Assembly (NCBI RefSeq): GCF_000015025.1
Contig: NC_008578.1
Span: forward strand, 1,530,001 to 1,562,000
Origin: Acidothermus cellulolyticus 11B
Lineage (GTDB): Bacteria > Actinomycetota > Actinomycetes > Acidothermales > Acidothermaceae
DNA length: 32,000 bases
Direction: 5' to 3'
Position numbers and translations under genes: made by a program. The notes beneath the pieces were generated by a model, which searched no databases, had not been told where the DNA came from, and saw nothing but the letters and a program-made list of their open reading frames with translations. Shown in pieces: positions 14,673 through 28,581 of the stretch (position 1 is the stretch's first letter; each line of letters begins with the position of its first letter).

Positions 14673-15290
14673 GTGGCGAGTCGGCAACGGCCGTCGGAGC
14701 CGCCGGAGGCATTTGCGCGCGCGATCGCCGGGTTGCGCGCTGTGCGGTTGCGTCCGGAAATCCGGCTCGCCGAAGCACCGGCGCCGCAGCGGCTCGCGCC
14801 GTTCGCCCTCGCGTTCACCGGTGACATTGACGCGGCCGGCGAGGAGCTCGCCACCGGTCGGTTCGTCGTCCTGCACAATCCGGCGGGCGAAGAGACCTGG
14901 CAGGGCGACACCCGCGTCGTCGTGTACGTCCGGGCCCTGCTCGAACCGGAGATGGCCAACGATCCGTTCCTCCCCGCGGTGGCGTGGACCTGGCTCACGG
15001 AAGCCCTCACGCACCGGTTCGAGCCGGCCATGCCGGTTGCATTGGGCGGCACGGTGACCCGCGTCCTGTCGGAGTCGTTCGGGACGATGAGCAGCAGGCC
15101 GCCGAGCGCGCACGTCGAGCTTCGGGCATCGTGGACGCCGTCCGGTGACCTCACCGCTCATCTCGAGGCGTGGGGCGAAGTGCTCGCCTCGGCCGCCGGG
15201 CTGCCGCCATTGCCGCCCGGAGTAGCCGTTCTCCCCCCACCGGGCGATGCCCGGCGGACCGCCGCGACCCGGCCGCCGCGGCGGCGCTGA
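14673..15290 (+). CDS. DUF3000-family protein
   Basis: 205-aa ORF. The N-terminal region (FARAIAGLRAVRLRPEIRLAEAPAPQRLAPFALAF, FVVLHNPAGEETWQG) matches my recollection of the actinobacterial DUF3000 protein that normally sits between hemE and rnd. Confidence 0.78.
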   Translation: MASRQRPSEPPEAFARAIAGLRAVRLRPEIRLAEAPAPQRLAPFALAFTGDIDAAGEELATGRFVVLHNPAGEETWQGDTRVVVYVRALLEPEMANDPFLPAVAWTWLTEALTHRFEPAMPVALGGTVTRVLSESFGTMSSRPPSAHVELRASWTPSGDLTAHLEAWGEVLASAAGLPPLPPGVAVLPPPGDARRTAATRPPRRR

Positions 15291-15332
15291 GCCGGGTGAC
15301 GACCCGACGCCGATCCGGGTTACTGAACCGGG

Positions 15333-16436
15333 TTACGACGACGGCACGGGCTCGCTCCGCCGATTGCTCGGCGCAAGCGGCCCGCTCGGCGCCCCGCGCG
15401 GCATCCGCAGGGTGAGCGTCGTCCCGGGCTGCGGCCACGAGGTGATGTCCAGCGAACCGCCGGCCAGCCGGACCCGCTCCCGCAGCAAGCCAAGCCCGAC
15501 ATGCCGGCCGCGCTCCGGCCGGACCTGCTCCGGGTCGAAGCCCGGGCCGTCGTCGTGAACCACGGCGACCACGTGGGTTTCGTCAACCGTCAGCGAGATC
15601 CGGGCGATGTCGACGTCCGCATGCTTGACGACGTTGAGCAGCCCCTCCTGGAAGAACCGGTACACCGTCACCGCGGTGACCAACGGCAGCGGGTACGGCG
15701 AACTCGGCCACTCGATGAGAACCTCCAGCCCGTACCGCGTGCGCAGGTCGTCGCGGAGCGCAAGCACCGCCTGCGCGAGATCGCCGTCGCGGAGCGCGGG
15801 TGGTCGGGTCCGGGCCATCACCGCGCGCACTTGGTCCTCCGCCTCGGCGACCAGCTCACGGATCGTGACAAGATCGGATGGCTCCACCACCGGCGAGGTG
15901 AGCAGCGACCGCGCGAGCATCAGGGTCTGCGCCACCGTGTCATGCAGCTCGGCGGAGAGCTGACCTCGGGCGGATTCCTCCGCCTCCACCAGGCCGGAGA
16001 GCAGTTCGAACATGCCGGCACTTGCCGTCTCGGCCAACTGGCGGTGGCGGGCCGCGACGTCGTCCGAGACCCGGATCCGCAGGTGCAGCGCCTCCAATGC
16101 CCGGGCCAACTCCAGCAGCTCGGGAACAGCGCTGACCAGAACGTGGTCCTTGCTGTCGCCGACGAGCGGCGCGTGGGCGTCCTCCAGTCGATGCGTGGCG
16201 TTCTCCCGCAAATGCCGAAGGGCAACCGCGAACCGCCGCCCTGCCCGGTAGCCGACCCAGGCGCACAGCGCGGTCACGACCAGCGCAACACCAAGCGCGA
16301 GCCAGCTTGCTGCGTCCAGTCGATCAGCCGCGACGAGACCGAGCGTGACGACGATCAGCGCGGCTACTCCGCTGGCGGCCGCAAGACCACTCGTCCAGAC
16401 CGCAAGCGGAAATCCGTGTCCACGAAACGGTTTCAC
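15333..16436 (-). CDS. sensor histidine kinase, HisKA_3 (NarL-partner) class, intramembrane-sensing topology
   Basis: 367-aa ORF with two N-terminal TM helices separated by only about 8 residues (ADRLDAAS). It has the H-box LSAELHDTVAQTL and a C-terminal HATPase_c region (LLNVVKHA, DDGPGF, GLGLLRERV). The GTG start overlaps the stop of the upstream gene (GTGA, 16433-16436). Confidence 0.86.
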   Translation of the reverse strand: MKPFRGHGFPLAVWTSGLAAASGVAALIVVTLGLVAADRLDAASWLALGVALVVTALCAWVGYRAGRRFAVALRHLRENATHRLEDAHAPLVGDSKDHVLVSAVPELLELARALEALHLRIRVSDDVAARHRQLAETASAGMFELLSGLVEAEESARGQLSAELHDTVAQTLMLARSLLTSPVVEPSDLVTIRELVAEAEDQVRAVMARTRPPALRDGDLAQAVLALRDDLRTRYGLEVLIEWPSSPYPLPLVTAVTVYRFFQEGLLNVVKHADVDIARISLTVDETHVVAVVHDDGPGFDPEQVRPERGRHVGLGLLRERVRLAGGSLDITSWPQPGTTLTLRMPRGAPSGPLAPSNRRSEPVPSS

Positions 16437-17920
16437 CGCACTGATTGTGTCTGCTCATTGTCCGGCTGCGCCGCCTCCGGCAGCCGGATTCCGGGTGCCA
16501 CGCCGTCCGGCTTGGCGGTTCCCGGCAGCAGGCCGGTCGTGGTCCATTCGCCTTCGCGGCGGACCGGTGCACTGGGAGTCGCGTCCAGTTCGCGCAACGC
16601 CGGATCGGCGGCCAACGCAATGGCACCGAGCAGCGACGCAACCGCCCGTTCCACCGCGTGCAATTCCTCGACGATCTCCCGGACCGCATCGTTGCTGCCG
16701 GTGCTGGCCAGCCGCGCAAGCCGGGTCGCCGACTCGCGGAGCATGTCGAGCGCCGGCGCGGTGTCGGCTCCAAGGTCGCCGAGGCTGCGGGCGGCCTGGT
16801 CCGCCGCGTGAGCCCGGGCCATCGCGCGGTCGCGGGCAGCCGCGAGATCGGCGACGGAGAGCCAGGATTTCGCCTGGCCCACCAGCACCTTGACCAGAGC
16901 AACTTCACGACGTCCGAAGCTCGAGCTCCCCTCGGCCCGTCGCGCGATCATGACGGCCAACGGTCGGTCGTGCTTGCCGATGACGGCTGAGCAGAACGGA
17001 CGGCCCTCCTCAGAGCCGACCAACACGCCCCGGGCGCCCAGTGCGCGCAAGGCCCACGGCTGGTCGAAGGCGTGCGGGTCCGGTCGGCGCTGGGTTTGTC
17101 CGGACTCGTCACCGGTGTAGACGACCGGGCCTTCATGCTCCAGGACGACCAGCTCGACATCGGCACCGCCGAGCACCCGGGCGGCCGCGGTGAGGACGAC
17201 TCGGGCGGAGATGTCCACCGAATGCGTGACCGCCTGCTCTTGACCGCGGGCGAGCTCGGCGAAGAGCCGGGCCTCGGCGCTCTTGGACGTCTGCTCGTCG
17301 AAGGCCACCCAGAGGAGGAAGACCGGCACGAGCAGCCCGAGGAGACCGAACGGTGCGTGGACCATGAGCCACGAGGCGAGGAGACCGACGCTCGTCGTGC
17401 CGGCGGCGTGGACGGCGTACACGCCCGCGTCTTCGAAGATCATGGCTCGGAGACTCTGCCGGCCCATGATCGACAGCGGGATCGCCGACATCACTTGGTC
17501 GGTCATCCACCAGATGGCCATCGCCGCTGCACAGGCAACAACACCGCCGTGCAGGTGCACCGCCGTGTAGGCGGCGAGCGTGCCGGTAAGGAAGTACTGG
17601 GCAAGGTTGTAGAAAACCTTGAGCGGTGAGGACCGCTGCCGCAGGAGTGCCGGGAAGAGACCGAGGCAGGTCGCCGGGACGATCCACCAACCGGGGGCGA
17701 GGAGGAAGGCGCCGGCAAGAACGCCCTCGGTCATCGTGAAGGTCACGAGCATGCGGGCGATGGTGATGCTGATCCGCAGGATGTTCGCGGCAGCGACGAG
17801 GATCACCAGCAGCGGCAACGCCCACAGTGCGGGATGGCCCCAATGCGTCGCCGCGGCGAGCGGCAGGCTGGCCCCGATCGCCAGAATGGCGACGAGCCGG
17901 AGACGCCAGGTTGGGCTCAT
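16433..17920 (-). CDS. polytopic membrane protein (about 8 TM helices) with cytoplasmic GAF-like domain and helical tail; putative accessory sensor
   Basis: 495-aa ORF. Residues 1-207 are hydrophobic helices. Residues about 232-356 have a GAF-like pattern (ARVVLTAAARVLGGADVELVVL ... RPLAVMIARRAEGSSSFGRREVALVKVLVGQA). Residues 357-435 are predicted helical and include EELHAVERAVASLL. No kinase ATPase domain is present. ATGA overlap with the protease stop (17917-17920). Confidence 0.7.
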   Translation of the reverse strand: MSPTWRLRLVAILAIGASLPLAAATHWGHPALWALPLLVILVAAANILRISITIARMLVTFTMTEGVLAGAFLLAPGWWIVPATCLGLFPALLRQRSSPLKVFYNLAQYFLTGTLAAYTAVHLHGGVVACAAAMAIWWMTDQVMSAIPLSIMGRQSLRAMIFEDAGVYAVHAAGTTSVGLLASWLMVHAPFGLLGLLVPVFLLWVAFDEQTSKSAEARLFAELARGQEQAVTHSVDISARVVLTAAARVLGGADVELVVLEHEGPVVYTGDESGQTQRRPDPHAFDQPWALRALGARGVLVGSEEGRPFCSAVIGKHDRPLAVMIARRAEGSSSFGRREVALVKVLVGQAKSWLSVADLAAARDRAMARAHAADQAARSLGDLGADTAPALDMLRESATRLARLASTGSNDAVREIVEELHAVERAVASLLGAIALAADPALRELDATPSAPVRREGEWTTTGLLPGTAKPDGVAPGIRLPEAAQPDNEQTQSVR

Positions 17921-19674
17921 GATCCGTCACCCCAGCTCACAGCGTCCCATATCTGGGCGCCCCACATCCGCGCATCCCAGACATCAGCGCCCCACATCCG
18001 CGCACCCCACATACGGGCGCCCCACATCCGCGCATCCCACGAGCCGGCGCCCCACATCCGCGCACCCCACATCCGGGCCTCCCAGGAATCGGCGCCCCAC
18101 ATCCGCGCGTCCCAGGAATCGGCACCCCACATACGGGCACCCCACATCCGCGCATCCCACGAGTCGACGCCCCACATCCGCGCACCCCACATCCGGGCGC
18201 CCCACATCCGGGCGAGCGGCCAGACCGGCGCCCAGTAGGAGACCGTCGAGAACCACTGCCGCAGATTGAGACCCTGCTCACCGGTGTTGAGCGGACGCGC
18301 GTCCCCGTCGCCCGGGACACCCACGAGTCCCTGGCCGTCGGCGTACCCGGGCTGAATCGGCGTGGCGGCGTTGCGGATGGCGGACTTGACCACCCACGGG
18401 TTGGCATGCGGGTGCGCTTGCAGGTACAGCGCCGCGAGACCGCTGACGATTGCGGTGGACTGGCTGGTGCCGGAGCCGCGGAACAGCCCATTGGGTTGGC
18501 GCCCATTGGGGAATTGTTGCGCAATCACCGTGTCTGCCGGCATTTCGCCCAGGATGTTGACACCTGCGGCGACGACGTCCGGCTTGACAATGCCGTCGAC
18601 GTTGCCATAGCCGCTGAAGCTGGCGACCACCGGGGTGTCGCCGGTGGTGTCCGCGGCGCCGACGGTCAAGGCATCCGGCGAGAAACCGGGATCACCCACC
18701 ACACCGGGGGTATTGCCGGAAGCCACGACGACGGTGACTCCGGCGTACCGGGTCAGGGTGACGGCGAAATTCAGCGGATCGATGCCGTAGCCGGACGTCG
18801 GCGGCGTCACGCTCATCGACAGGTTGGCCACGTCGACCGAATTCGCGTGGGTGGCGACCCAGTTGAGTCCGGCGATGACCGCCGCGAGCGAGCTCCGGCC
18901 GGTGTCGTCGGCGACCTTGACGACGTCAACGGTCGCCCCGGGGGCCACGCCGAGCGCCGTACCGTTCGTGCCATCAACCACGCCGCCGGCGATCAGCGAT
19001 GCCATGAAGGTGCCGTGGCCGTAGCCGTCTGTGAACGTGCCGTTCTCGACAACGTGACCACCGCGGGTGTTCAGCCCGGAGGTGTCAACGGCGTCCACGA
19101 GCCGACCGGAGGCGCGATCAAGCGCCGGCGTGTCGCTGACGCCGGTGTCGATCAGGGCGACCGTGACACCGGCGCCGGCCCCCGGCTGGCCGGCCGGGGC
19201 GCCAAGCGTCGTCGGCGCGAGAACGCCGTCAACCGGCGAACTGCCGGAGTCACCGGACGTAGCGCCGCTGCTGCCGGAGTCGCTGGACGTATCGGCGGCC
19301 CCGCTGCTGCCGGACGAGCTCTGGTCGGTGCCGCCGCCCTGGGCGCCTCCGTCATGACCGCCGCCTCTGCCCCCACGGCCGTAGGCAAACCCGGCGACGT
19401 CAACGGCAACGTTGGGCGCGACACCGAGGACCCCCGGCTGCTGCGCCAGTGCGGTGAGCGCCGCCGTGTCGCCGGTGACGACCTCGACGTGGACGGCGTC
19501 CAGCAGAGCCTGCAGGTGCACACCCGGAACGAGCACGGGCGCGGTCCCCGCGAGAGCGACGACCGCTTGCTGCTGAGCGGTTTCGGCTGCGGCCGGGGTC
19601 GCCGCCACCATGCCGAGCGCTGCTGCCAGTGTGGCCCCGGCGGCCAGCCATCTGCGGAGTGCCTGCACGATCAT
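17917..19674 (-). CDS. secreted subtilisin-like serine protease (peptidase S8) with C-terminal Trp-pentapeptide repeat tail
   Basis: Catalytic contexts are VTVALIDTGV (Asp), GYGHGTFMASLIAGG (His), VVVASGNTPG (oxyanion Asn) and GSGTSQSTAIVSG (Ser). The start is placed at ATG 19674, with purine-rich GAGGGGA just upstream. The N-terminus MIVQALRRWLAAGATLAAALGMVAATPAAA/ETAQ looks like a Sec or Tat signal. A propeptide-like segment is followed by a Gly/Ser-rich linker (about 19234-19383). The ORF-track start (TTG 19983) is rejected. Confidence 0.85.
   Translation of the reverse strand: MIVQALRRWLAAGATLAAALGMVAATPAAAETAQQQAVVALAGTAPVLVPGVHLQALLDAVHVEVVTGDTAALTALAQQPGVLGVAPNVAVDVAGFAYGRGGRGGGHDGGAQGGGTDQSSSGSSGAADTSSDSGSSGATSGDSGSSPVDGVLAPTTLGAPAGQPGAGAGVTVALIDTGVSDTPALDRASGRLVDAVDTSGLNTRGGHVVENGTFTDGYGHGTFMASLIAGGVVDGTNGTALGVAPGATVDVVKVADDTGRSSLAAVIAGLNWVATHANSVDVANLSMSVTPPTSGYGIDPLNFAVTLTRYAGVTVVVASGNTPGVVGDPGFSPDALTVGAADTTGDTPVVASFSGYGNVDGIVKPDVVAAGVNILGEMPADTVIAQQFPNGRQPNGLFRGSGTSQSTAIVSGLAALYLQAHPHANPWVVKSAIRNAATPIQPGYADGQGLVGVPGDGDARPLNTGEQGLNLRQWFSTVSYWAPVWPLARMWGARMWGARMWGVDSWDARMWGARMWGADSWDARMWGADSWEARMWGARMWGAGSWDARMWGARMWGARMWGADVWDARMWGAQIWDAVSWGDGS
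17929..18213 (-). repeat. 19 contiguous in-frame 15-nt units encoding ARMWG (x12) and VDSWD/ADSWD/ADSWE/AGSWD/ADVWD/AQIWD/AVSWG
   Basis: Read directly from the sequence (units such as gccccacatccgcgc on the + strand). Trp (cca on the + strand) is present in every unit. The units differ at synonymous positions. The array ends 9 nt before the stop codon. Confidence 0.95.
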
Positions 19675-19898
19675 CCGTCCCCTCGCGTCTCGTCGACGTG
19701 GAGCCCGGTCGACTCCCTGCTGGAGGTGTCGGCATCCGCGGCATCCAACTGTTGCAGGAGGCAGCAAACCGCCCGATCGGAGCAAGCCGGCAGGACGAGC
19801 GGCCGTATCGATACCCCGAAACAGCCCAAGAACGGGACGAAACTGGATAATCTGACGCCACTCGCGCTGGGCGGTTGGCACGGCGGCTCGCTGCGGCC

Positions 19899-19983
19899 TC
19901 GCCCGGCCGAGCACCGCGGCAAGGAACGCCCGTGGCGAGACGGCGTTCGCCACTATGTGTCGCCCGGCCGAGCACCGCGGCAA
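19899..19983. repeat. perfect 24-bp direct repeat pair TCGCCCGGCCGAGCACCGCGGCAA (19899-19922 and 19960-19983); candidate operator
   Basis: Both copies are identical and lie 61 bp apart start to start, inside the divergent intergenic region between the protease operon and the response-regulator gene. Coordinates are confirmed by two ORF-track entries that both begin MPRCSAGR at 19922 and 19983. Confidence 0.9.
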
Positions 19984-20118
19984 ATGACCGACAGCCGGTT
20001 ACCGCGAATGCAGCACGCAAGGGTCGGCGAATGCTTCAGCCCGCGGCCGCCGCATCCGATGACTCCGGGTGACACCGGGTCGGGTAAGCCGACCTCGACG
20101 AGCAGAGGAGGGACCAGG

Positions 20119-20796
20119 GTGACGGCGTTGGCCGAGCACGTGCCGCCCCAGCCGGGGAACTCCGCGGGTTTCACCGCAATGGTGGTCGACGACCACCCGT
20201 TGGTCCGCGAATCCATGGTGAGCCGGCTCACCGCGATGGGGGCGCGGGAGGTGATAGAAGCGGCCAGTTGCGCCGAGGCCAGGGCCCGGGCCCGGTCGGT
20301 CGGACCGTGCGACGTCTGCATCGTGGACGTCGGCCTCCCCGACGGTTCAGGGCTCGATTTGATCGCTGAACTGCGGGCCGCGGGATGGCCCCGGCTCGTC
20401 GTCCTCTCCGCCGCTGACGACCCGTACTCGGTGCGCGCAGCCTTTGTCGCGGGCGCGCAGGGGTATCTGCTGAAATCCGCCTCGCCGGTGGTGGTCACCG
20501 ACGGGGTGCGCCGAGTGCTGGACGGCGGTGTGTACGCCGACCCCGCCGTGGCCTCCCTCCTGGCGGCTGGGCTGCGCAACAACGCCAGCAACGAAGGCAT
20601 CGGTGACCTCTCCAGCCGGGAGATCGAGGTACTCCGGTTGGTCGCCGACGGTCGGTCCAACAAGGAAATCGGGGACCAGCTCGGACTCTCGGCACTGACC
20701 GTCAAGAGCCACCTGGCCCGCATCGCCCGCAAGCTCGGCACTGGGGACCGCGCCGAGATGGTGGCGCTCGCGATGCGCGCCGGCATCATTCGGTGA
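20119..20796 (+). CDS. response regulator, NarL/LuxR family (REC + HTH)
   Basis: Receiver motifs are VVDDHPLV, CIVDVGLPDGSG (phospho-Asp context) and YLLKS. The C-terminal LuxR HTH is LSSREIEVLRLVADGRSNKEIGDQLGLSALTVKSHLARI. The GTG at 20119 is preceded by AGAGGAGGGA. The ATG at 20179 is an alternative start. Upstream in-frame codons have poor GC3 and are rejected. Confidence 0.88.
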   Translation: MTALAEHVPPQPGNSAGFTAMVVDDHPLVRESMVSRLTAMGAREVIEAASCAEARARARSVGPCDVCIVDVGLPDGSGLDLIAELRAAGWPRLVVLSAADDPYSVRAAFVAGAQGYLLKSASPVVVTDGVRRVLDGGVYADPAVASLLAAGLRNNASNEGIGDLSSREIEVLRLVADGRSNKEIGDQLGLSALTVKSHLARIARKLGTGDRAEMVALAMRAGIIR

Positions 20797-20961: not shown

Positions 20962-22212
20962 GTGTCCGACTCTCCACTCGTTGCGAAGGTTCGACCGCAT
21001 CTGAGTCTGCGGGACGGTACGCCGGATGTGGTCGACACACCGGAGAAGCTGGCCGCTGCAGTCCGCGCACTGGCGGCGGCCGACGGACCGGTCGCCGTCG
21101 ACGCCGAGCGGGCCTCGGCCTACCGGTACGGGCATCGGGCCTATCTCGTCCAACTGCGCCGGCCGGGTGCAGGCACGTTCCTCATTGACCCGCTCCCCTT
21201 CGCCAACCTGCGGCCGGTGCATGAGGCGCTCTCGACAGCCGAGTGGATCGTACACGCCGCAGCACAGGATTTGCCGTGCCTCGCTGAACTCGGCCTGCGG
21301 CCCGCTCGATTGTTTGACACCGAGCTCGCCGCCCGGCTTGCCGGCTATCCCCGGGTTGGGCTTGCCGCGATGGTGGAGGAGCTTCTCGGTTTCCGGCTGA
21401 ACAAGGACCACGCCCGGGTCGATTGGTCACGGCGCCCCTTACCGGAATCGTGGTTGCGCTACGCGGCACTCGACGTCGAAGTTCTCGTTGAACTAAGGGA
21501 GATTTTGCATACCGAGCTGCAGCGTCAAGGAAAACTGCGTTGGGCGGTCGAGGAATTCGAGCATGTGCGTACCGCGCCGCCTCCGTCGTCACCGGTGGAA
21601 CGGTGGCGGCGGGTCTCGGGAATTCATCAGGTTCGGGGACGGCGTCAGCTGGCCGTCGTCCGGGAACTTTGGCATGCCCGTGACCGTCGTGCCCGCGAAC
21701 TGGATATGTCGCCCGGCAAAGTGCTCTCAGACTCGGCAATCATCCGCGCCGCGACCGGAAAATTCCGGAGCAAGAAAGAACTCGCCGCAACCCCGGAATT
21801 CTCCGCCCGGCCGGCACGGGAATTCCTCGACGAGTGGTGGGACGCCATCGGGCGGGCGACGGCGTGCGGTGAGGCGGAACTTCCCGCGCCGACGCCGAAT
21901 ATTGACGGTCCGCCGCCCGCGCATCGCTGGTCGGAGGCGAGCCCGGACGCCGCCGCCCGGCTTTCGGTCGCGAAAACCGTCGTCGCTGCTCTCGCCGACG
22001 AACACCGGCTGCCGGCCGAGAATCTGCTGGCACCGGACGTCGTCCGCCGGCTCGCCTGGCAGCCACCGCATTCGCTGGATGATCACGCTGTCGCGACCGC
22101 GTTACGGCGGCTCGGCGCCCGGCCTTGGCAGGTCGGCCTGACCGCAGAACCGCTCGCCAAGGCGCTGCGACGTGTCGAGCTGCATGAGCTGAGGCATTCA
22201 ACCTCGCCGTAG
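20962..22212 (+). CDS. rnd: ribonuclease D (DEDD 3'-5' exonuclease + HRDC)
   Basis: 416-aa ORF with DEDDy motifs in PVAVDAERASAYRY, IVHAAAQDLPCL and RYAALDVEVL. An HRDC-like segment follows (VLSDSAIIRAA...). Confidence 0.87.
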   Translation: MSDSPLVAKVRPHLSLRDGTPDVVDTPEKLAAAVRALAAADGPVAVDAERASAYRYGHRAYLVQLRRPGAGTFLIDPLPFANLRPVHEALSTAEWIVHAAAQDLPCLAELGLRPARLFDTELAARLAGYPRVGLAAMVEELLGFRLNKDHARVDWSRRPLPESWLRYAALDVEVLVELREILHTELQRQGKLRWAVEEFEHVRTAPPPSSPVERWRRVSGIHQVRGRRQLAVVRELWHARDRRARELDMSPGKVLSDSAIIRAATGKFRSKKELAATPEFSARPAREFLDEWWDAIGRATACGEAELPAPTPNIDGPPPAHRWSEASPDAAARLSVAKTVVAALADEHRLPAENLLAPDVVRRLAWQPPHSLDDHAVATALRRLGARPWQVGLTAEPLAKALRRVELHELRHSTSP

Positions 22213-22307
22213 CCGATCCGGTGGCCCGAGGCAGCGGACGCTTCCTCGGCACTGGGCACAGGACGCTAGCCGTCCCCGACACCCGACGCCGCACGCTCAC
22301 CGCCTGC

Positions 22308-22348
22308 GCCCGCCGACGCACCGACCCTGCCCGCCGACGCACCGACCC
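22308..22348. repeat. tandem 21-bp repeat x2 (GCCCGCCGACGCACCGACCC at 22308-22327 and 22329-22348)
   Basis: Two perfect 20-nt copies separated by a single T, in the 257-bp spacer between rnd and the next CDS. Confidence 0.85.
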
Positions 22349-22469
22349 CGGGCGGTAACACGCGGACCTCACGAGACACGGTTTTCCCAACCGTCACGTT
22401 TTCGTCTCTCGGGGTATCGGGGGCAACCTGCGAGGGGTACCGTCCTACGTATAGCCGGAGGAGGGGGGC

Positions 22470-28483: not shown

Positions 28484-28581
28484 GCTGCGTCCGCGGTCAC
28501 GCGCGTCCGTGGGGCGCGTCCGCGGTCAGGCGCGGAAGTCGGCTGCGTCCGCGGTCACGCGAGTCTCCGGTCAGGCGCGGA
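28484..28581. repeat. repeat array upstream of acn: GCGTCCGCGGTCA x3 at exact 29-bp spacing, within an imperfect 58-bp duplication
   Basis: The 13-mer occurs at 28487-28499, 28516-28528 and 28545-28557. An identical 20-mer GCTGCGTCCGCGGTCACGCG occurs at 28484-28503 and 28542-28561. CGGTCAGGCGCGGA occurs at 28523-28536 and again at 28568-28581, where it spans the stop codon of the upstream small CDS. Confidence 0.9.

What the first reader, a model, noticed from the sequence alone, without database searches (positions are those of the whole stretch)
17929..18213. Trp-invariant pentapeptide repeat array (ARMWG / xDSWD, 19 units) as the C-terminal tail of a secreted S8 protease
SEEN: The last ~98 codons of the subtilase are 19 back-to-back 15-nt units with no spacers. 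They encode ARMWG x12 interleaved with VDSWD, ADSWD, ADSWE, AGSWD, ADVWD, AQIWD and AVSWG, then DGS-stop. Trp occupies position 4 in 19/19 units, and three further Trp lie in the ~20 residues before the array (QWFSTVSYWAPVWPL). Units differ at synonymous sites (Gly GGC/GGT, Arg CGG/CGT, Ala GCG/GCC/GCT). The peptide sequence therefore looks maintained by selection rather than produced by recent slippage. Basic ARMWG units and acidic xDSWD units roughly cancel in charge. KNOWN: Canonical pentapeptide-repeat proteins (Pfam PF00805, consensus A[D/N]LXX) form right-handed quadrilateral beta-helices. They have 4 repeats per turn, with Ala (i-2) and Leu/Phe (i) pointing inward. INFERENCE: ARMWG/ADSWD fits that register (A at i-2, R/D at i-1, M/S at i). 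That register would place every Trp at the exposed i+1 position and give stacked Trp ladders. Acidic units fall at repeats 4, 7, 9, 12, 16 and 18, roughly every fourth, as expected if one face is acidic. I do not recognise this Trp-invariant variant, or its fusion to a subtilase, as a described domain or sorting signal (it is not LPXTG, PEP-CTERM, a T9SS CTD, a choline-binding repeat, GW or WxL). Possible roles are a non-covalent envelope, glycan or lipid anchor. More speculatively, it could be a multi-copy peptide precursor trimmed by its own protease and sensed by the adjacent two-component system. In-frame 15-nt units could also allow copy-number variation between strains.
Basis: partly seen in the sequence, partly recalled or inferred. 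Interest (0 to 1): 0.82.

Follow-up and report, generated by a model that had tools for sequence, protein, structure and literature searches.

The report
Trp-repeat tail linking protease to sensor
A secreted protease of Acidothermus cellulolyticus ends in 19 five-residue units, each with a tryptophan; hundreds of bacteria have such a tail, almost always encoded just upstream of a membrane sensor, so it may be an undescribed link between protease and signalling.

Summary
The S8 protease gene 17917-19674(-) of A. cellulolyticus 11B ends in 19 in-frame 15-nt units (17929-18213) with Trp at position 4 of each.

The proposed fold, a pentapeptide-repeat beta-helix with Trp ladders, is not supported:
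- PF00805 scores 19.4 bits, below its 20.2 cut-off. Tails of relatives do not hit it at all.
- Position 3, the would-be inward residue, is polar family-wide.
- Two AlphaFold2 runs give pLDDT 30-37 for the tail.

The tail is not a local oddity. 118 of the 120 best homologues and 80 of 80 genome loci carry one (4-38 units, three phyla). Only a small residue at position 1 and Trp/Phe at position 4 are constrained across the family.

In 66 of 78 assessable loci a homologous polytopic membrane sensor follows immediately. Its output is a separate kinase plus LuxR-type regulator here, and fused GGDEF-EAL or PAS-kinase domains elsewhere.

Small-x-x-aromatic matches subtilisin P4-P1 preference and the propeptide's own end (GFAY|G). 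Identical units differ at near-saturated synonymous sites.

Best reading (about 0.4): the tail is an array of self-cleavage sites whose state or released xAxxW pentapeptides the sensor reads. No family model or paper describes it.

The parts
17917..19674 (-). S8 (subtilisin-family) protease gene, 585 aa. It is A. cellulolyticus 11B ABK53161.1.
   Evidence: PF00082 E 4.9e-37. Exact match to ABK53161.1. D176, H220, S404 and N321 are invariant in 75 homologues. The best solved relative is pro-Tk-SP, 3afg.
19585..19674 (-). Predicted signal peptide, residues 1-30 (MIVQALRRWLAAGATLAAALGMVAATPAAA|E).
   Evidence: Read from the sequence. The cleavage site and the Sec-versus-Tat route are inferred, not tested.
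19381..19584 (-). Subtilisin-type N-terminal propeptide, residues 31-98, ending in GFAY|G.
   Evidence: AF2 pLDDT is above 90 for residues 30-90. Foldseek aligns it with the propeptide of pro-Tk-SP and of pro-subtilisins. The end motif [GS]-x-[AGS]-[FYW]-G is conserved in the close clade. There is no Pfam hit.
19237..19380 (-). Gly/Ser-rich low-complexity linker, residues 99-146.
   Evidence: AF2 pLDDT is below 50. Its length varies between homologues.
18265..19236 (-). Catalytic subtilase domain. Triad codons are D176 at 19147-19149, H220 at 19015-19017 and S404 at 18463-18465.
18214..18264 (-). Trp-rich junction (..QWFSTVSYWAPVWPL) between the catalytic domain and the array.
   Evidence: The family-wide conserved pattern is LN..QW.ST...WG.
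17929..18213 (-). The finding: 19 pentapeptide units (A-x-x-W-x), residues 488-582.
   Evidence: The array is conserved as a family hallmark.
17917..17928 (-). Terminal cap DGS plus stop. The stop TGA overlaps the ATG of the next gene (ATGA).
   Evidence: The ending ..SWGD[GAS]x is conserved in the close clade.
16433..17920 (-). Partner gene: a 495-aa polytopic membrane sensor. It has a MASE-like N-terminal transmembrane domain of about 210 aa and a cytoplasmic part that looks GAF-like and helical by eye (not tested).
   Evidence: There is no Pfam hit itself. A homologous domain follows the protease gene in 66 of 78 assessable loci. Homologues carry GAF, GGDEF-EAL or PAS-HisKA-HATPase domains, and 5 of 45 weakly hit MASE9.
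15333..16436 (-). Histidine kinase (two N-terminal hydrophobic segments read as transmembrane helices, then HisKA_3 and HATPase_c). Its start overlaps the stop of the sensor gene by 4 nt.
   Evidence: It is conserved in all close-clade loci with enough sequence.
20119..20796 (+). Divergently transcribed NarL/LuxR-type response regulator, 225 aa.
   Evidence: PF00072 and PF00196. It is 78-90% identical across the clade and always in this position.

Best explanation
The tail is the defining C-terminal extension of a large family of secreted subtilases that work together with a polytopic membrane sensor encoded immediately downstream. It is most likely not a folded domain. I read it as a flexible string of back-to-back recognition sites for the protease itself. 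In each unit the small residue at position 1 would be P4 and the Trp at position 4 would be P1.

Proposed sequence of events:
1. The protease is exported and removes its propeptide, which ends in the same small-x-x-aromatic|Gly motif.
2. The active enzyme, in cis or in trans, cuts after each Trp. This shortens the tail and releases pentapeptides ending in Trp (GARMW, DARMW and similar).
3. The adjacent sensor reads either these peptides or the state of the tail. That gives the cell a read-out of how much active protease is outside.
4. In Acidothermus the signal passes through a separate HisKA_3 kinase to a LuxR-type regulator. In other lineages the same sensor domain is fused to GGDEF-EAL or to PAS-kinase outputs.

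What is shown: the array; its family-wide conservation; selection on unit identity; the lack of a predicted fold; and the gene pairing.

What is inferred: cleavage after Trp, release of peptides, and perception by the sensor.
For: 1. Family hallmark. 118 of the 120 best homologues and 80 of 80 genome loci end in a Trp-period-5 array. They come from Actinomycetota, Chloroflexota and Dormibacterota.

2. Constraint pattern. In 188 distinct arrays position 1 is A53/G24/S10 %. Position 4 is W92/F8 % (runs were defined as W/F/Y at that position, so this shows Trp predominance, not independent aromatic conservation). Positions 2, 3 and 5 carry 2.7-3.2 bits of entropy. A spacing of three residues is the P4-P1 spacing of subtilisin substrates such as suc-AAPF-pNA (my own knowledge).

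3. Propeptide end. In the close clade it reads [GS]-x-[AGS]-[FYW]|G, and GFAY|G in the window. In subtilisin BPN' this segment (AHAY) occupies S4-S1 (my own knowledge).

4. Gene pairing. A homologous membrane sensor domain lies directly downstream in 66 of 78 assessable loci. The median gap is 2 nt and 32 cases overlap. It is the only conserved neighbour in 58 distant loci. Its outputs vary: 23 of 45 carry GGDEF-EAL and 15 of 45 carry PAS-HisKA-HATPase. This argues that the protease acts on the input side of the sensor.

5. Selection for identical units. In many arrays one pentapeptide is encoded by almost as many DNA variants as there are copies. For example, 12 ASSWS units use 11 DNA sequences, and 18 GTSWT units use 14. 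Divergence at fourfold third positions is 0.5-0.67, near the saturation level of the same gene. Only 3 of 79 arrays look recently expanded.

6. Fixed tails. In the ARRWS sub-clade the tail is a fixed 65 aa and is as conserved as the catalytic core (0.908 against 0.889 identity).

7. No fold. AF2 pLDDT is about 30 for the tail in the full-length model and 37 for the tail alone.

8. Precedent. Tandemly duplicated Phr pheromone propeptides are matured by extracellular proteases (PMC11343458). Polytopic sensors without large outer domains are typical of peptide-sensing kinases such as AgrC and ComD (my own knowledge).
Against: - No cleavage, peptide or binding has been observed. The P4/P1 reading rests on general subtilisin specificity. 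Gly at P4 (24% of units) is not a classical preference.
- A signal array fused to the protease that cuts it has no precedent.
- In the ARRWS sub-clade and in Actinoplanes the units are heterogeneous but conserved position by position. That fits a defined binding surface at least as well as a multi-copy product.
- Ser/Thr-rich tails could be O-glycosylated and protected from proteolysis.
- 12 of 55 assessable distant loci show no sensor hit at E below 1e-3. At least two of these, L040 and L063, are borderline hits with the same architecture.
- A low AF2 confidence does not prove disorder.
Confidence: 0.4

Rival explanations
1. The tail is an interfacial membrane anchor or docking tether. It stays intact, lies on the outer face of the cytoplasmic membrane through its Trp side chains, and holds the protease next to the sensor or contacts it directly. 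The protease then acts on other substrates, or the sensor senses the tail as a tethered ligand.
For: - The Wimley-White interfacial free energy is favourable in 94% of 188 arrays, and about -10.8 kcal/mol for the window tail (scale values are from memory).
- The tail is strictly C-terminal with a conserved terminal cap ..WGD.
- The tail has a fixed length and is conserved position by position in the ARRWS sub-clade.
- The sensor is a polytopic membrane domain with short loops.
Against: - A generic Trp anchor does not explain the conserved small residue at position 1.
- It does not explain selection for identical residues at all five positions within an array despite saturated synonymous sites.
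- An unfolded aromatic-rich tail next to an active subtilisin-type enzyme would be expected to be cut.
- Some arrays are strongly acidic, down to -1 net charge per unit.
Confidence: 0.28
2. The tail is a variant pentapeptide-repeat right-handed beta-helix with stacked exposed Trp, acting as a cell-wall, glycan or lipid binding module.
For: - The tail alone scores 19.4 bits on PF00805, E 7.6e-4.
- A phmmer search with the tail finds mostly true pentapeptide-repeat proteins with ANLWG or ADLWG units.
- In Acidothermus position 3 is Met in 12 of 19 units.
- A secreted protein with an ANxWN x39 array exists (P0128).
Against: - The score is below the 20.2-bit cut-off and no single stretch passes.
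- Ten diverse family tails give no PF00805 hit at E up to 1.
- Family-wide, position 3 is Ser, Thr, Arg or Ala rather than Leu, Phe or Met, so there is no consistent hydrophobic core register.
- AF2 pLDDT is 30-37 and pTM is 0.11. In my experience true pentapeptide-repeat proteins are predicted confidently.
- The acidic units are spaced 3, 2, 3, 4, 2 rather than 4.
Confidence: 0.1
3. The tail is a C-terminal pro-segment, comparable to prepeptidase C-terminal domains. It aids export or keeps the enzyme quiet, and is then removed and degraded with no signalling role. On this view the pairing with the sensor reflects regulation of protease expression only.
For: - Many subtilases carry removable C-terminal extensions (my own knowledge).
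- The tail has no predicted fold.
- Copy number varies between strains.
Against: - The partner sensor often has a c-di-GMP output and no DNA-binding partner. That does not fit simple transcriptional control of the protease.
- Selection for identical units and a tail conserved as well as the core are more than a disposable segment needs.
Confidence: 0.12
4. The array is a recent slippage product or an assembly artefact without function.
For: - Strain-level copy-number variation.
- Three of 79 arrays look recently expanded.
Against: - The window is from a complete genome.
- The tail is conserved across three phyla.
- Synonymous sites between units are near saturation.
Confidence: 0.01

Closest known systems
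Canonical pentapeptide-repeat proteins (Pfam PF00805; MfpA, Qnr and Rfr-type beta-helices)
   Same: Both have a strict 5-residue period with Ala at the first position. The Acidothermus units ARMWG and ADSWD resemble the ANLWG and ADLWG units of true members.
   Different: The tail scores below the family threshold. The would-be inward central position is polar across the family. No beta-helix is predicted. Trp is the invariant residue here, whereas in true members Trp is only an occasional residue at i+1.
Tandemly duplicated Phr pheromone propeptides of Bacillus and its phages, matured by extracellular proteases (PMC11343458). The identification of those proteases as subtilisin, Epr and Vpr is from my own knowledge.
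   Same: Both are short, roughly pentapeptide units in tandem. Both involve an extracellular subtilisin-family protease and a dedicated receptor encoded next to the precursor.
   Different: - Here the array is fused to the protease itself.
- It has 4-38 copies without spacers.
- The receptor is a membrane sensor rather than a cytoplasmic Rap protein reached through Opp import.
- Processing here is only inferred.
Subtilases with C-terminal extensions: Tk-SP beta-jelly-roll domain (3afg), prepeptidase C-terminal domains, and mycosins with a C-terminal membrane anchor
   Same: All share a signal peptide, propeptide, S8 core and C-terminal extension. The closest solved structure is pro-Tk-SP. The best NCBIfam hit is mycosin, at 96 bits against a 279-bit cut-off.
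   Different: The extension here is a Trp-periodic low-complexity array. It is neither a folded domain nor a hydrophobic helix, and no solved structure covers it.
Polytopic membrane sensor domains: MASE9 and other MASE domains (bioRxiv 10.1101/2021.11.05.467447), and the AgrC/ComD peptide-sensing kinases
   Same: The partner protein has a multi-helix membrane domain with short loops and conserved polar residues. That domain is combined promiscuously with GGDEF-EAL, GAF and kinase outputs.
   Different: Only 5 of 45 members weakly hit MASE9, and the window protein hits no Pfam family. I found no description of a MASE-type domain paired with a protease.
Aromatic-rich cell-wall binding repeats (choline-binding repeats, GW modules, ChW, WxL)
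   Same: All are repeated conserved aromatic residues on secreted proteins.
   Different: Those repeats are 20-80 residues long and folded. None of their models matches the tail at E up to 1.

Membership tests
Pentapeptide-repeat proteins (PF00805) | Tandem repeats with a strict 5-residue period | tested here: met
   19 units without spacers; 4-38 units in relatives.
Pentapeptide-repeat proteins (PF00805) | Consensus A(D/N)LXX: small residue at i-2 and a hydrophobic Leu/Phe/Met at the central position i | tested here: not met
   Position 1 is A/G/S in 87% of units. Position 3 is S36, T13, R9, A9, M6, N5, L5 % across 188 arrays. Only the Acidothermus lineage has Met there.
Pentapeptide-repeat proteins (PF00805) | Score at or above the Pfam gathering threshold | tested here: not met
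   19.4 bits against a cut-off of 20.2, with no stretch passing on its own. Ten diverse family tails give no hit at E up to 1. True members score 227-249 bits.
Pentapeptide-repeat proteins (PF00805) | Right-handed quadrilateral beta-helix fold | tested here: inconclusive
   AF2 gives pLDDT about 30 in the full-length model and 37 (pTM 0.11) for the tail alone, with no strands. A prediction failure is not a structure determination.
Subtilases (MEROPS S8A, PF00082) with N-terminal propeptide | Asp-His-Ser triad plus the oxyanion Asn, in the subtilisin fold with a propeptide | tested here: met
   PF00082 E 4.9e-37. D176, H220, S404 and N321 are invariant. Foldseek best match is pro-Tk-SP 3afg, E 4.7e-24 over 452 columns.
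Known C-terminal sorting or anchoring signals (LPXTG, PEP-CTERM, T9SS CTD, GlyGly-CTERM and others) and cell-wall binding repeats | Match to the corresponding Pfam or NCBIfam model | tested here: not met
   No such family at E up to 1 for the window tail or for ten diverse tails. The one hit is a low-complexity match of GMSWD to TIGR02953 (MxKDx).
Multi-copy signalling-peptide precursors (tandem Phr type) | Tandem copies of one short peptide kept identical by selection | tested here: met
   The modal unit is encoded by many DNA variants with near-saturated synonymous divergence in most arrays. In the window, 12 ARMWG units use 5 DNA variants.
Multi-copy signalling-peptide precursors (tandem Phr type) | Cognate receptor encoded next to the precursor | tested here: met
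   A homologous membrane sensor lies directly downstream in 66 of 78 loci. Adjacency is shown; ligand recognition is not.
Multi-copy signalling-peptide precursors (tandem Phr type) | Proteolytic release of the peptides and a response to them | not testable with these tools
   This needs mass spectrometry of culture fluid, in-vitro cleavage assays and reporter assays.
MASE9 membrane sensor domain (PF20972), for the partner protein | Match to the Pfam model | tested here: not met
   The window protein has no hit. Five of 45 partners hit weakly, best E 2.7e-4. I describe the domain as MASE-like and unclassified.

The most novel reading that the evidence does not exclude
The subtilase carries its own pheromone array. 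After export it cuts its tail after each Trp into up to 19 pentapeptides. A dedicated polytopic membrane receptor encoded downstream senses them and sets two-component or c-di-GMP output. This would be a self-contained system for reporting peptide signals or protease activity. It would be widespread in Actinomycetota, where I know of no well-established peptide signalling (my own knowledge), and present also in Chloroflexota and Dormibacterota.
Probability: 0.3. Interest if true: 0.9.

Novelty: new variant of a known kind. Interest (0 to 1): 0.7.

Why it matters
- If the coupling is functional, it defines a two-gene signalling module, a Trp-tailed subtilase plus a membrane sensor. It is present in hundreds of species: at least 548 loci in one genome per species.
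- The module is currently annotated only as 'S8 peptidase' or 'AprX' plus a hypothetical or GGDEF-EAL protein.
- It would give a candidate ligand source for an orphan family of membrane sensor domains that feed c-di-GMP and two-component pathways. It would also give a first handle on peptide-based or protease-based extracellular sensing in actinobacteria.
- The hypothesis is directly testable with synthetic pentapeptides and mass spectrometry.
- For annotation, the tail deserves its own family model so that it is not confused with PF00805.

Tried and rejected
- **Canonical pentapeptide-repeat membership.** Rejected on threshold, unit consensus and AF2.
- **Known sorting signals and wall-binding repeats.** No Pfam or NCBIfam hits.
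- **Solved structures.** PDB sequence search and Foldseek cover only the propeptide and catalytic domain.
- **Literature.** Searches on Trp-rich repeats with subtilases, on the string SWSASSWS, on guessed Acel locus tags around the gene (numbers not verified) and its UniProt accession, on protease plus GGDEF/EAL operons and on the Acidothermus/Frankia secretome found nothing on this tail or module.
- **Nei-Gojobori pN/pS between units.** Misleading, because TCN and AGY serine codons are counted as non-synonymous in these Ser-rich units. I replaced it with fourfold third-position divergence and counts of DNA variants per identical peptide.
- **Further conserved neighbour genes.** Only the downstream sensor is conserved in the 58 distant loci.
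- **Regulatory signals.** No inverted repeats in the 444-bp divergent intergenic region. No sigma-70-like promoters or intrinsic terminators in 15200-20200.
- **RNA genes.** No tRNA or Rfam hit in the window.
- **Cellulose binding.** Considered and dropped. The family is widespread in lineages with no evident link to cellulose degradation (not checked), and the pairing is with a sensor.
- **WXG/type VII link.** Dropped. The mycosin hit is generic (96 against 279 bits) and the tail has no W-x-G register.
- **P0154 (GHTMW x23).** Looks like a spurious translation and was not pursued.
Full report
**1. The observation**

The minus-strand ORF ending at 17917 encodes an S8 protease (PF00082, E 4.9e-37). 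Its last 98 codons are 19 back-to-back 15-nt units at 17929-18213, followed by DGS and a stop. The units are ARMWG x12, VDSWD, ADSWD, ADSWE, AGSWD, ADVWD, AQIWD and AVSWG.

- Trp is at position 4 in all 19 units. The first 487 residues hold only 6 Trp.
- Tandem Repeats Finder sees the period-15 array.
- The protein is identical to ABK53161.1/WP_011720224.1 of the complete genome of Acidothermus cellulolyticus 11B. An assembly artefact is therefore excluded.
- The likely start is MIVQALRRW at 19674, giving 585 aa. The order of parts is signal peptide, a subtilisin-type propeptide, a Gly/Ser linker, the catalytic domain with invariant D176/H220/S404/N321, a Trp-rich junction, and the array.

**2. 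The tail is a family hallmark**

- Of the 120 best homologues, 118 end in a Trp-period-5 array. The two exceptions are a frameshifted and a truncated sequence.
- A scan of one genome per species found at least 548 related loci. All 80 that were fetched carry such a tail, with 4-38 units. Examples:
  - ASSWS, ANSWS, ARRWS and ARNWT in Acidothermaceae, Frankiales and 'Mycobacteriales' MAGs.
  - GRSWS and GRAWT in Actinoplanes, and GRTWG in Blastococcus.
  - GMSWD x29 in Ilumatobacter.
  - GTTWS in Chloroflexota and GQ[ST]WS in Dormibacterota.
- Over 188 distinct arrays:
  - position 1 is A53/G24/S10 %.
  - position 4 is W92/F8 %. Runs were defined as W/F/Y at that position, so this shows Trp predominance rather than independent aromatic conservation.
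  - positions 2, 3 and 5 are variable and polar (2.7-3.2 bits).
  - Pro, Ile, Cys, Lys and His are nearly absent.
  - 84 different modal units occur.

**3. The tail is not a canonical pentapeptide-repeat helix**

- The window tail scores 19.4 bits on PF00805. The cut-off is 20.2, and no stretch passes on its own.
- An exhaustive phmmer search with the tail finds mostly true pentapeptide-repeat proteins with ADLSG or ANLWG units. Those proteins score 227-249 bits on PF00805.
- This resemblance is lineage-specific. Ten diverse family tails give no PF00805 hit at E up to 1.
- Position 3, which would have to point into the helix, is Ser, Thr, Arg or Ala family-wide. The alternative register, with Trp inward, puts Arg, Ser or Asn at i-2.
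- AlphaFold2 with a 75-sequence alignment models the propeptide and core at pLDDT above 90 but the tail at about 30. A tail-only run with a 12-sequence alignment gives pLDDT 37 and pTM 0.11.
- The acidic units are spaced 3, 2, 3, 4, 2 rather than every fourth.
- No Pfam or NCBIfam sorting-signal or wall-binding model matches. No solved structure covers the tail.

**4. Genomic context**

- In the window the protease stop overlaps the start of a 495-aa polytopic membrane protein (ATGA). That gene's stop in turn overlaps a HisKA_3 histidine kinase. A LuxR-type response regulator is transcribed divergently.
- This four-gene set sits between rnd and a DUF3000 gene. It is kept in every close-clade locus with enough sequence.
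- In the 58 more distant loci the kinase and regulator are absent. The only conserved neighbour is still a membrane protein directly downstream.
- An HMM of the close-clade N-terminal membrane domain hits that downstream protein in 66 of 78 assessable loci: 23 of 23 close and 43 of 55 distant. The median gap is 2 nt, and 32 cases overlap.
- Of 45 such partner proteins, 23 carry GGDEF plus EAL, 15 carry PAS, HisKA and HATPase_c, 21 carry GAF, and 5 weakly hit MASE9. MASE9 is a membrane-associated sensor domain thought to bind ligands within the membrane (bioRxiv 10.1101/2021.11.05.467447).
- The conserved unit is therefore a Trp-tailed subtilase plus a MASE-like membrane sensor with interchangeable outputs. 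That places the protease on the input side of the sensor.

**5. Selection on the units**

- In many arrays the same pentapeptide is encoded by nearly as many DNA variants as there are copies. Examples are 12 ASSWS by 11 variants, 15 ASSWS by 12, 18 GTSWT by 14, and 14 GSTWS by 11.
- Between identical residues, fourfold third positions differ at 0.5-0.67. That is close to the saturation level computed from the same gene. Only 3 of 79 arrays look recently expanded.
- In the window, 12 ARMWG units use 5 DNA variants, with third-position divergence 0.53 against an expected 0.61.
- Copy number still varies between strains: 19, 17, 16 and 9 in A. cellulolyticus, and 20 and 19 in Acidothermus sp. The first and last units are fixed. 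MAG assemblies may collapse repeats, so these counts carry that caveat.
- In the ARRWS sub-clade (32 proteins) the tail is a fixed 65 aa of heterogeneous units. It is conserved as well as the catalytic core (0.908 against 0.889 identity).

**6. Proposed mechanism (inference)**

- The two family-wide constraints are a small residue and an aromatic residue three positions later. This is the P4 and P1 spacing of a subtilisin substrate. The S1 and S4 pockets dominate subtilisin specificity, and suc-AAPF-pNA is the standard substrate (my own knowledge).
- The same motif ends the propeptide of these enzymes: [GS]-x-[AGS]-[FYW]|G, and GFAY|G in the window. In subtilisin BPN' the equivalent AHAY occupies S4-S1 after autoprocessing (my own knowledge).
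- The alignment to solved subtilisins places a conserved Gly at the position I identify from memory as Gly166, at the base of the S1 pocket. That would be consistent with a roomy S1.
- I therefore read the tail as a spacer-less string of the enzyme's own cleavage sites. Cutting after each Trp would release xAxxW pentapeptides or progressively shorten the tail. The adjacent sensor would perceive the peptides or the tail's state.
- Selection for identical units fits recognition of every unit by one site.
- Tandem Phr pheromone propeptides matured by extracellular proteases are a precedent (PMC11343458). Polytopic sensors lacking outer domains are typical of peptide-sensing kinases.
- Confidence is about 0.4. 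None of the biochemical steps has been observed.

**7. Rival explanations**

- *Interfacial membrane anchor or docking tether (about 0.28).* It is favoured by Wimley-White energies, negative in 94% of arrays and -10.8 kcal/mol here, and by the tails that are conserved position by position. It does not explain the position-1 constraint or the identity of all five positions within an array.
- *Pentapeptide-repeat-like solenoid (about 0.1).* See section 3.
- *Disposable C-terminal pro-segment without a signalling role (about 0.12).* It fits poorly with partners whose output is c-di-GMP and with the strength of selection on the units.
- *Artefact or neutral slippage.* Excluded.

**8. Novelty**

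- Databases annotate these proteins only as S8 peptidase or AprX with PF00082.
- No family model covers the tail, and I found no paper on the tail or on the protease-sensor pairing.
- I rate it a new variant of a known kind, namely a subtilase C-terminal extension or tandem short-peptide array. There is a substantial chance (about 0.3) that it is a new type of self-encoded peptide or protease-activity signalling module.

Noticed in passing
window 20119-20796 (+), compared with L001-L024: The LuxR-type response regulator is much more conserved across the clade (78-90% amino-acid identity) than the protease, sensor or kinase it sits next to (42-70%).
   Followed up: partly
window 19237-19380 (-): A Gly/Ser-rich low-complexity linker (residues 99-146) lies between the propeptide and the catalytic domain. 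AF2 pLDDT is below 50, and its length and sequence vary widely between homologues.
   Followed up: no
window 14673-15290 (+) and 20962-22212 (+): The four-gene module sits between a DUF3000 gene and rnd (RNase D). The same synteny, with hemE further on, is seen in relatives L001 and L002.
   Followed up: partly
L033, L035, L045, L066 (ends of the S8 ORFs): In some distant family members the Trp array is followed by a conserved extra segment (..FWG[NQ]R.P.W..P..GE.S.P..) rather than ending the protein.
   Followed up: no
P0128 and P0129 (one search hits): Trp-period-5 arrays also occur outside S8 proteases. P0128 has an N-terminal ANxWN x39 array in a secreted protein with Flg_new_2 repeats. 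P0129 has an NGQVW x93 array ahead of GPS and 7tm_2 domains, which looks like an adhesion GPCR.
   Followed up: partly
P0064: One homologue has an Arg/Pro-rich C-terminus in place of the Trp array. It looks like a frameshifted reading of the same repeat, so it is either a sequencing error or a pseudogene.
   Followed up: no
L036, L062, L078: In a few loci the ORF directly downstream of the Trp-tailed protease is another secreted protein of about 590 aa with a single hydrophobic segment, rather than the sensor. It may be a second protease.
   Followed up: no
window 28487-28579 and 22307-22350: There are other short tandem repeats in the window: period 29 with 2.7 copies, and period 21 with 2.1 copies.
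   Followed up: no
window 18406-20796 (+): A 796-aa ORF lies antisense to the protease gene. Only its last 225 codons, the response regulator, are supported by homology.
   Followed up: yes
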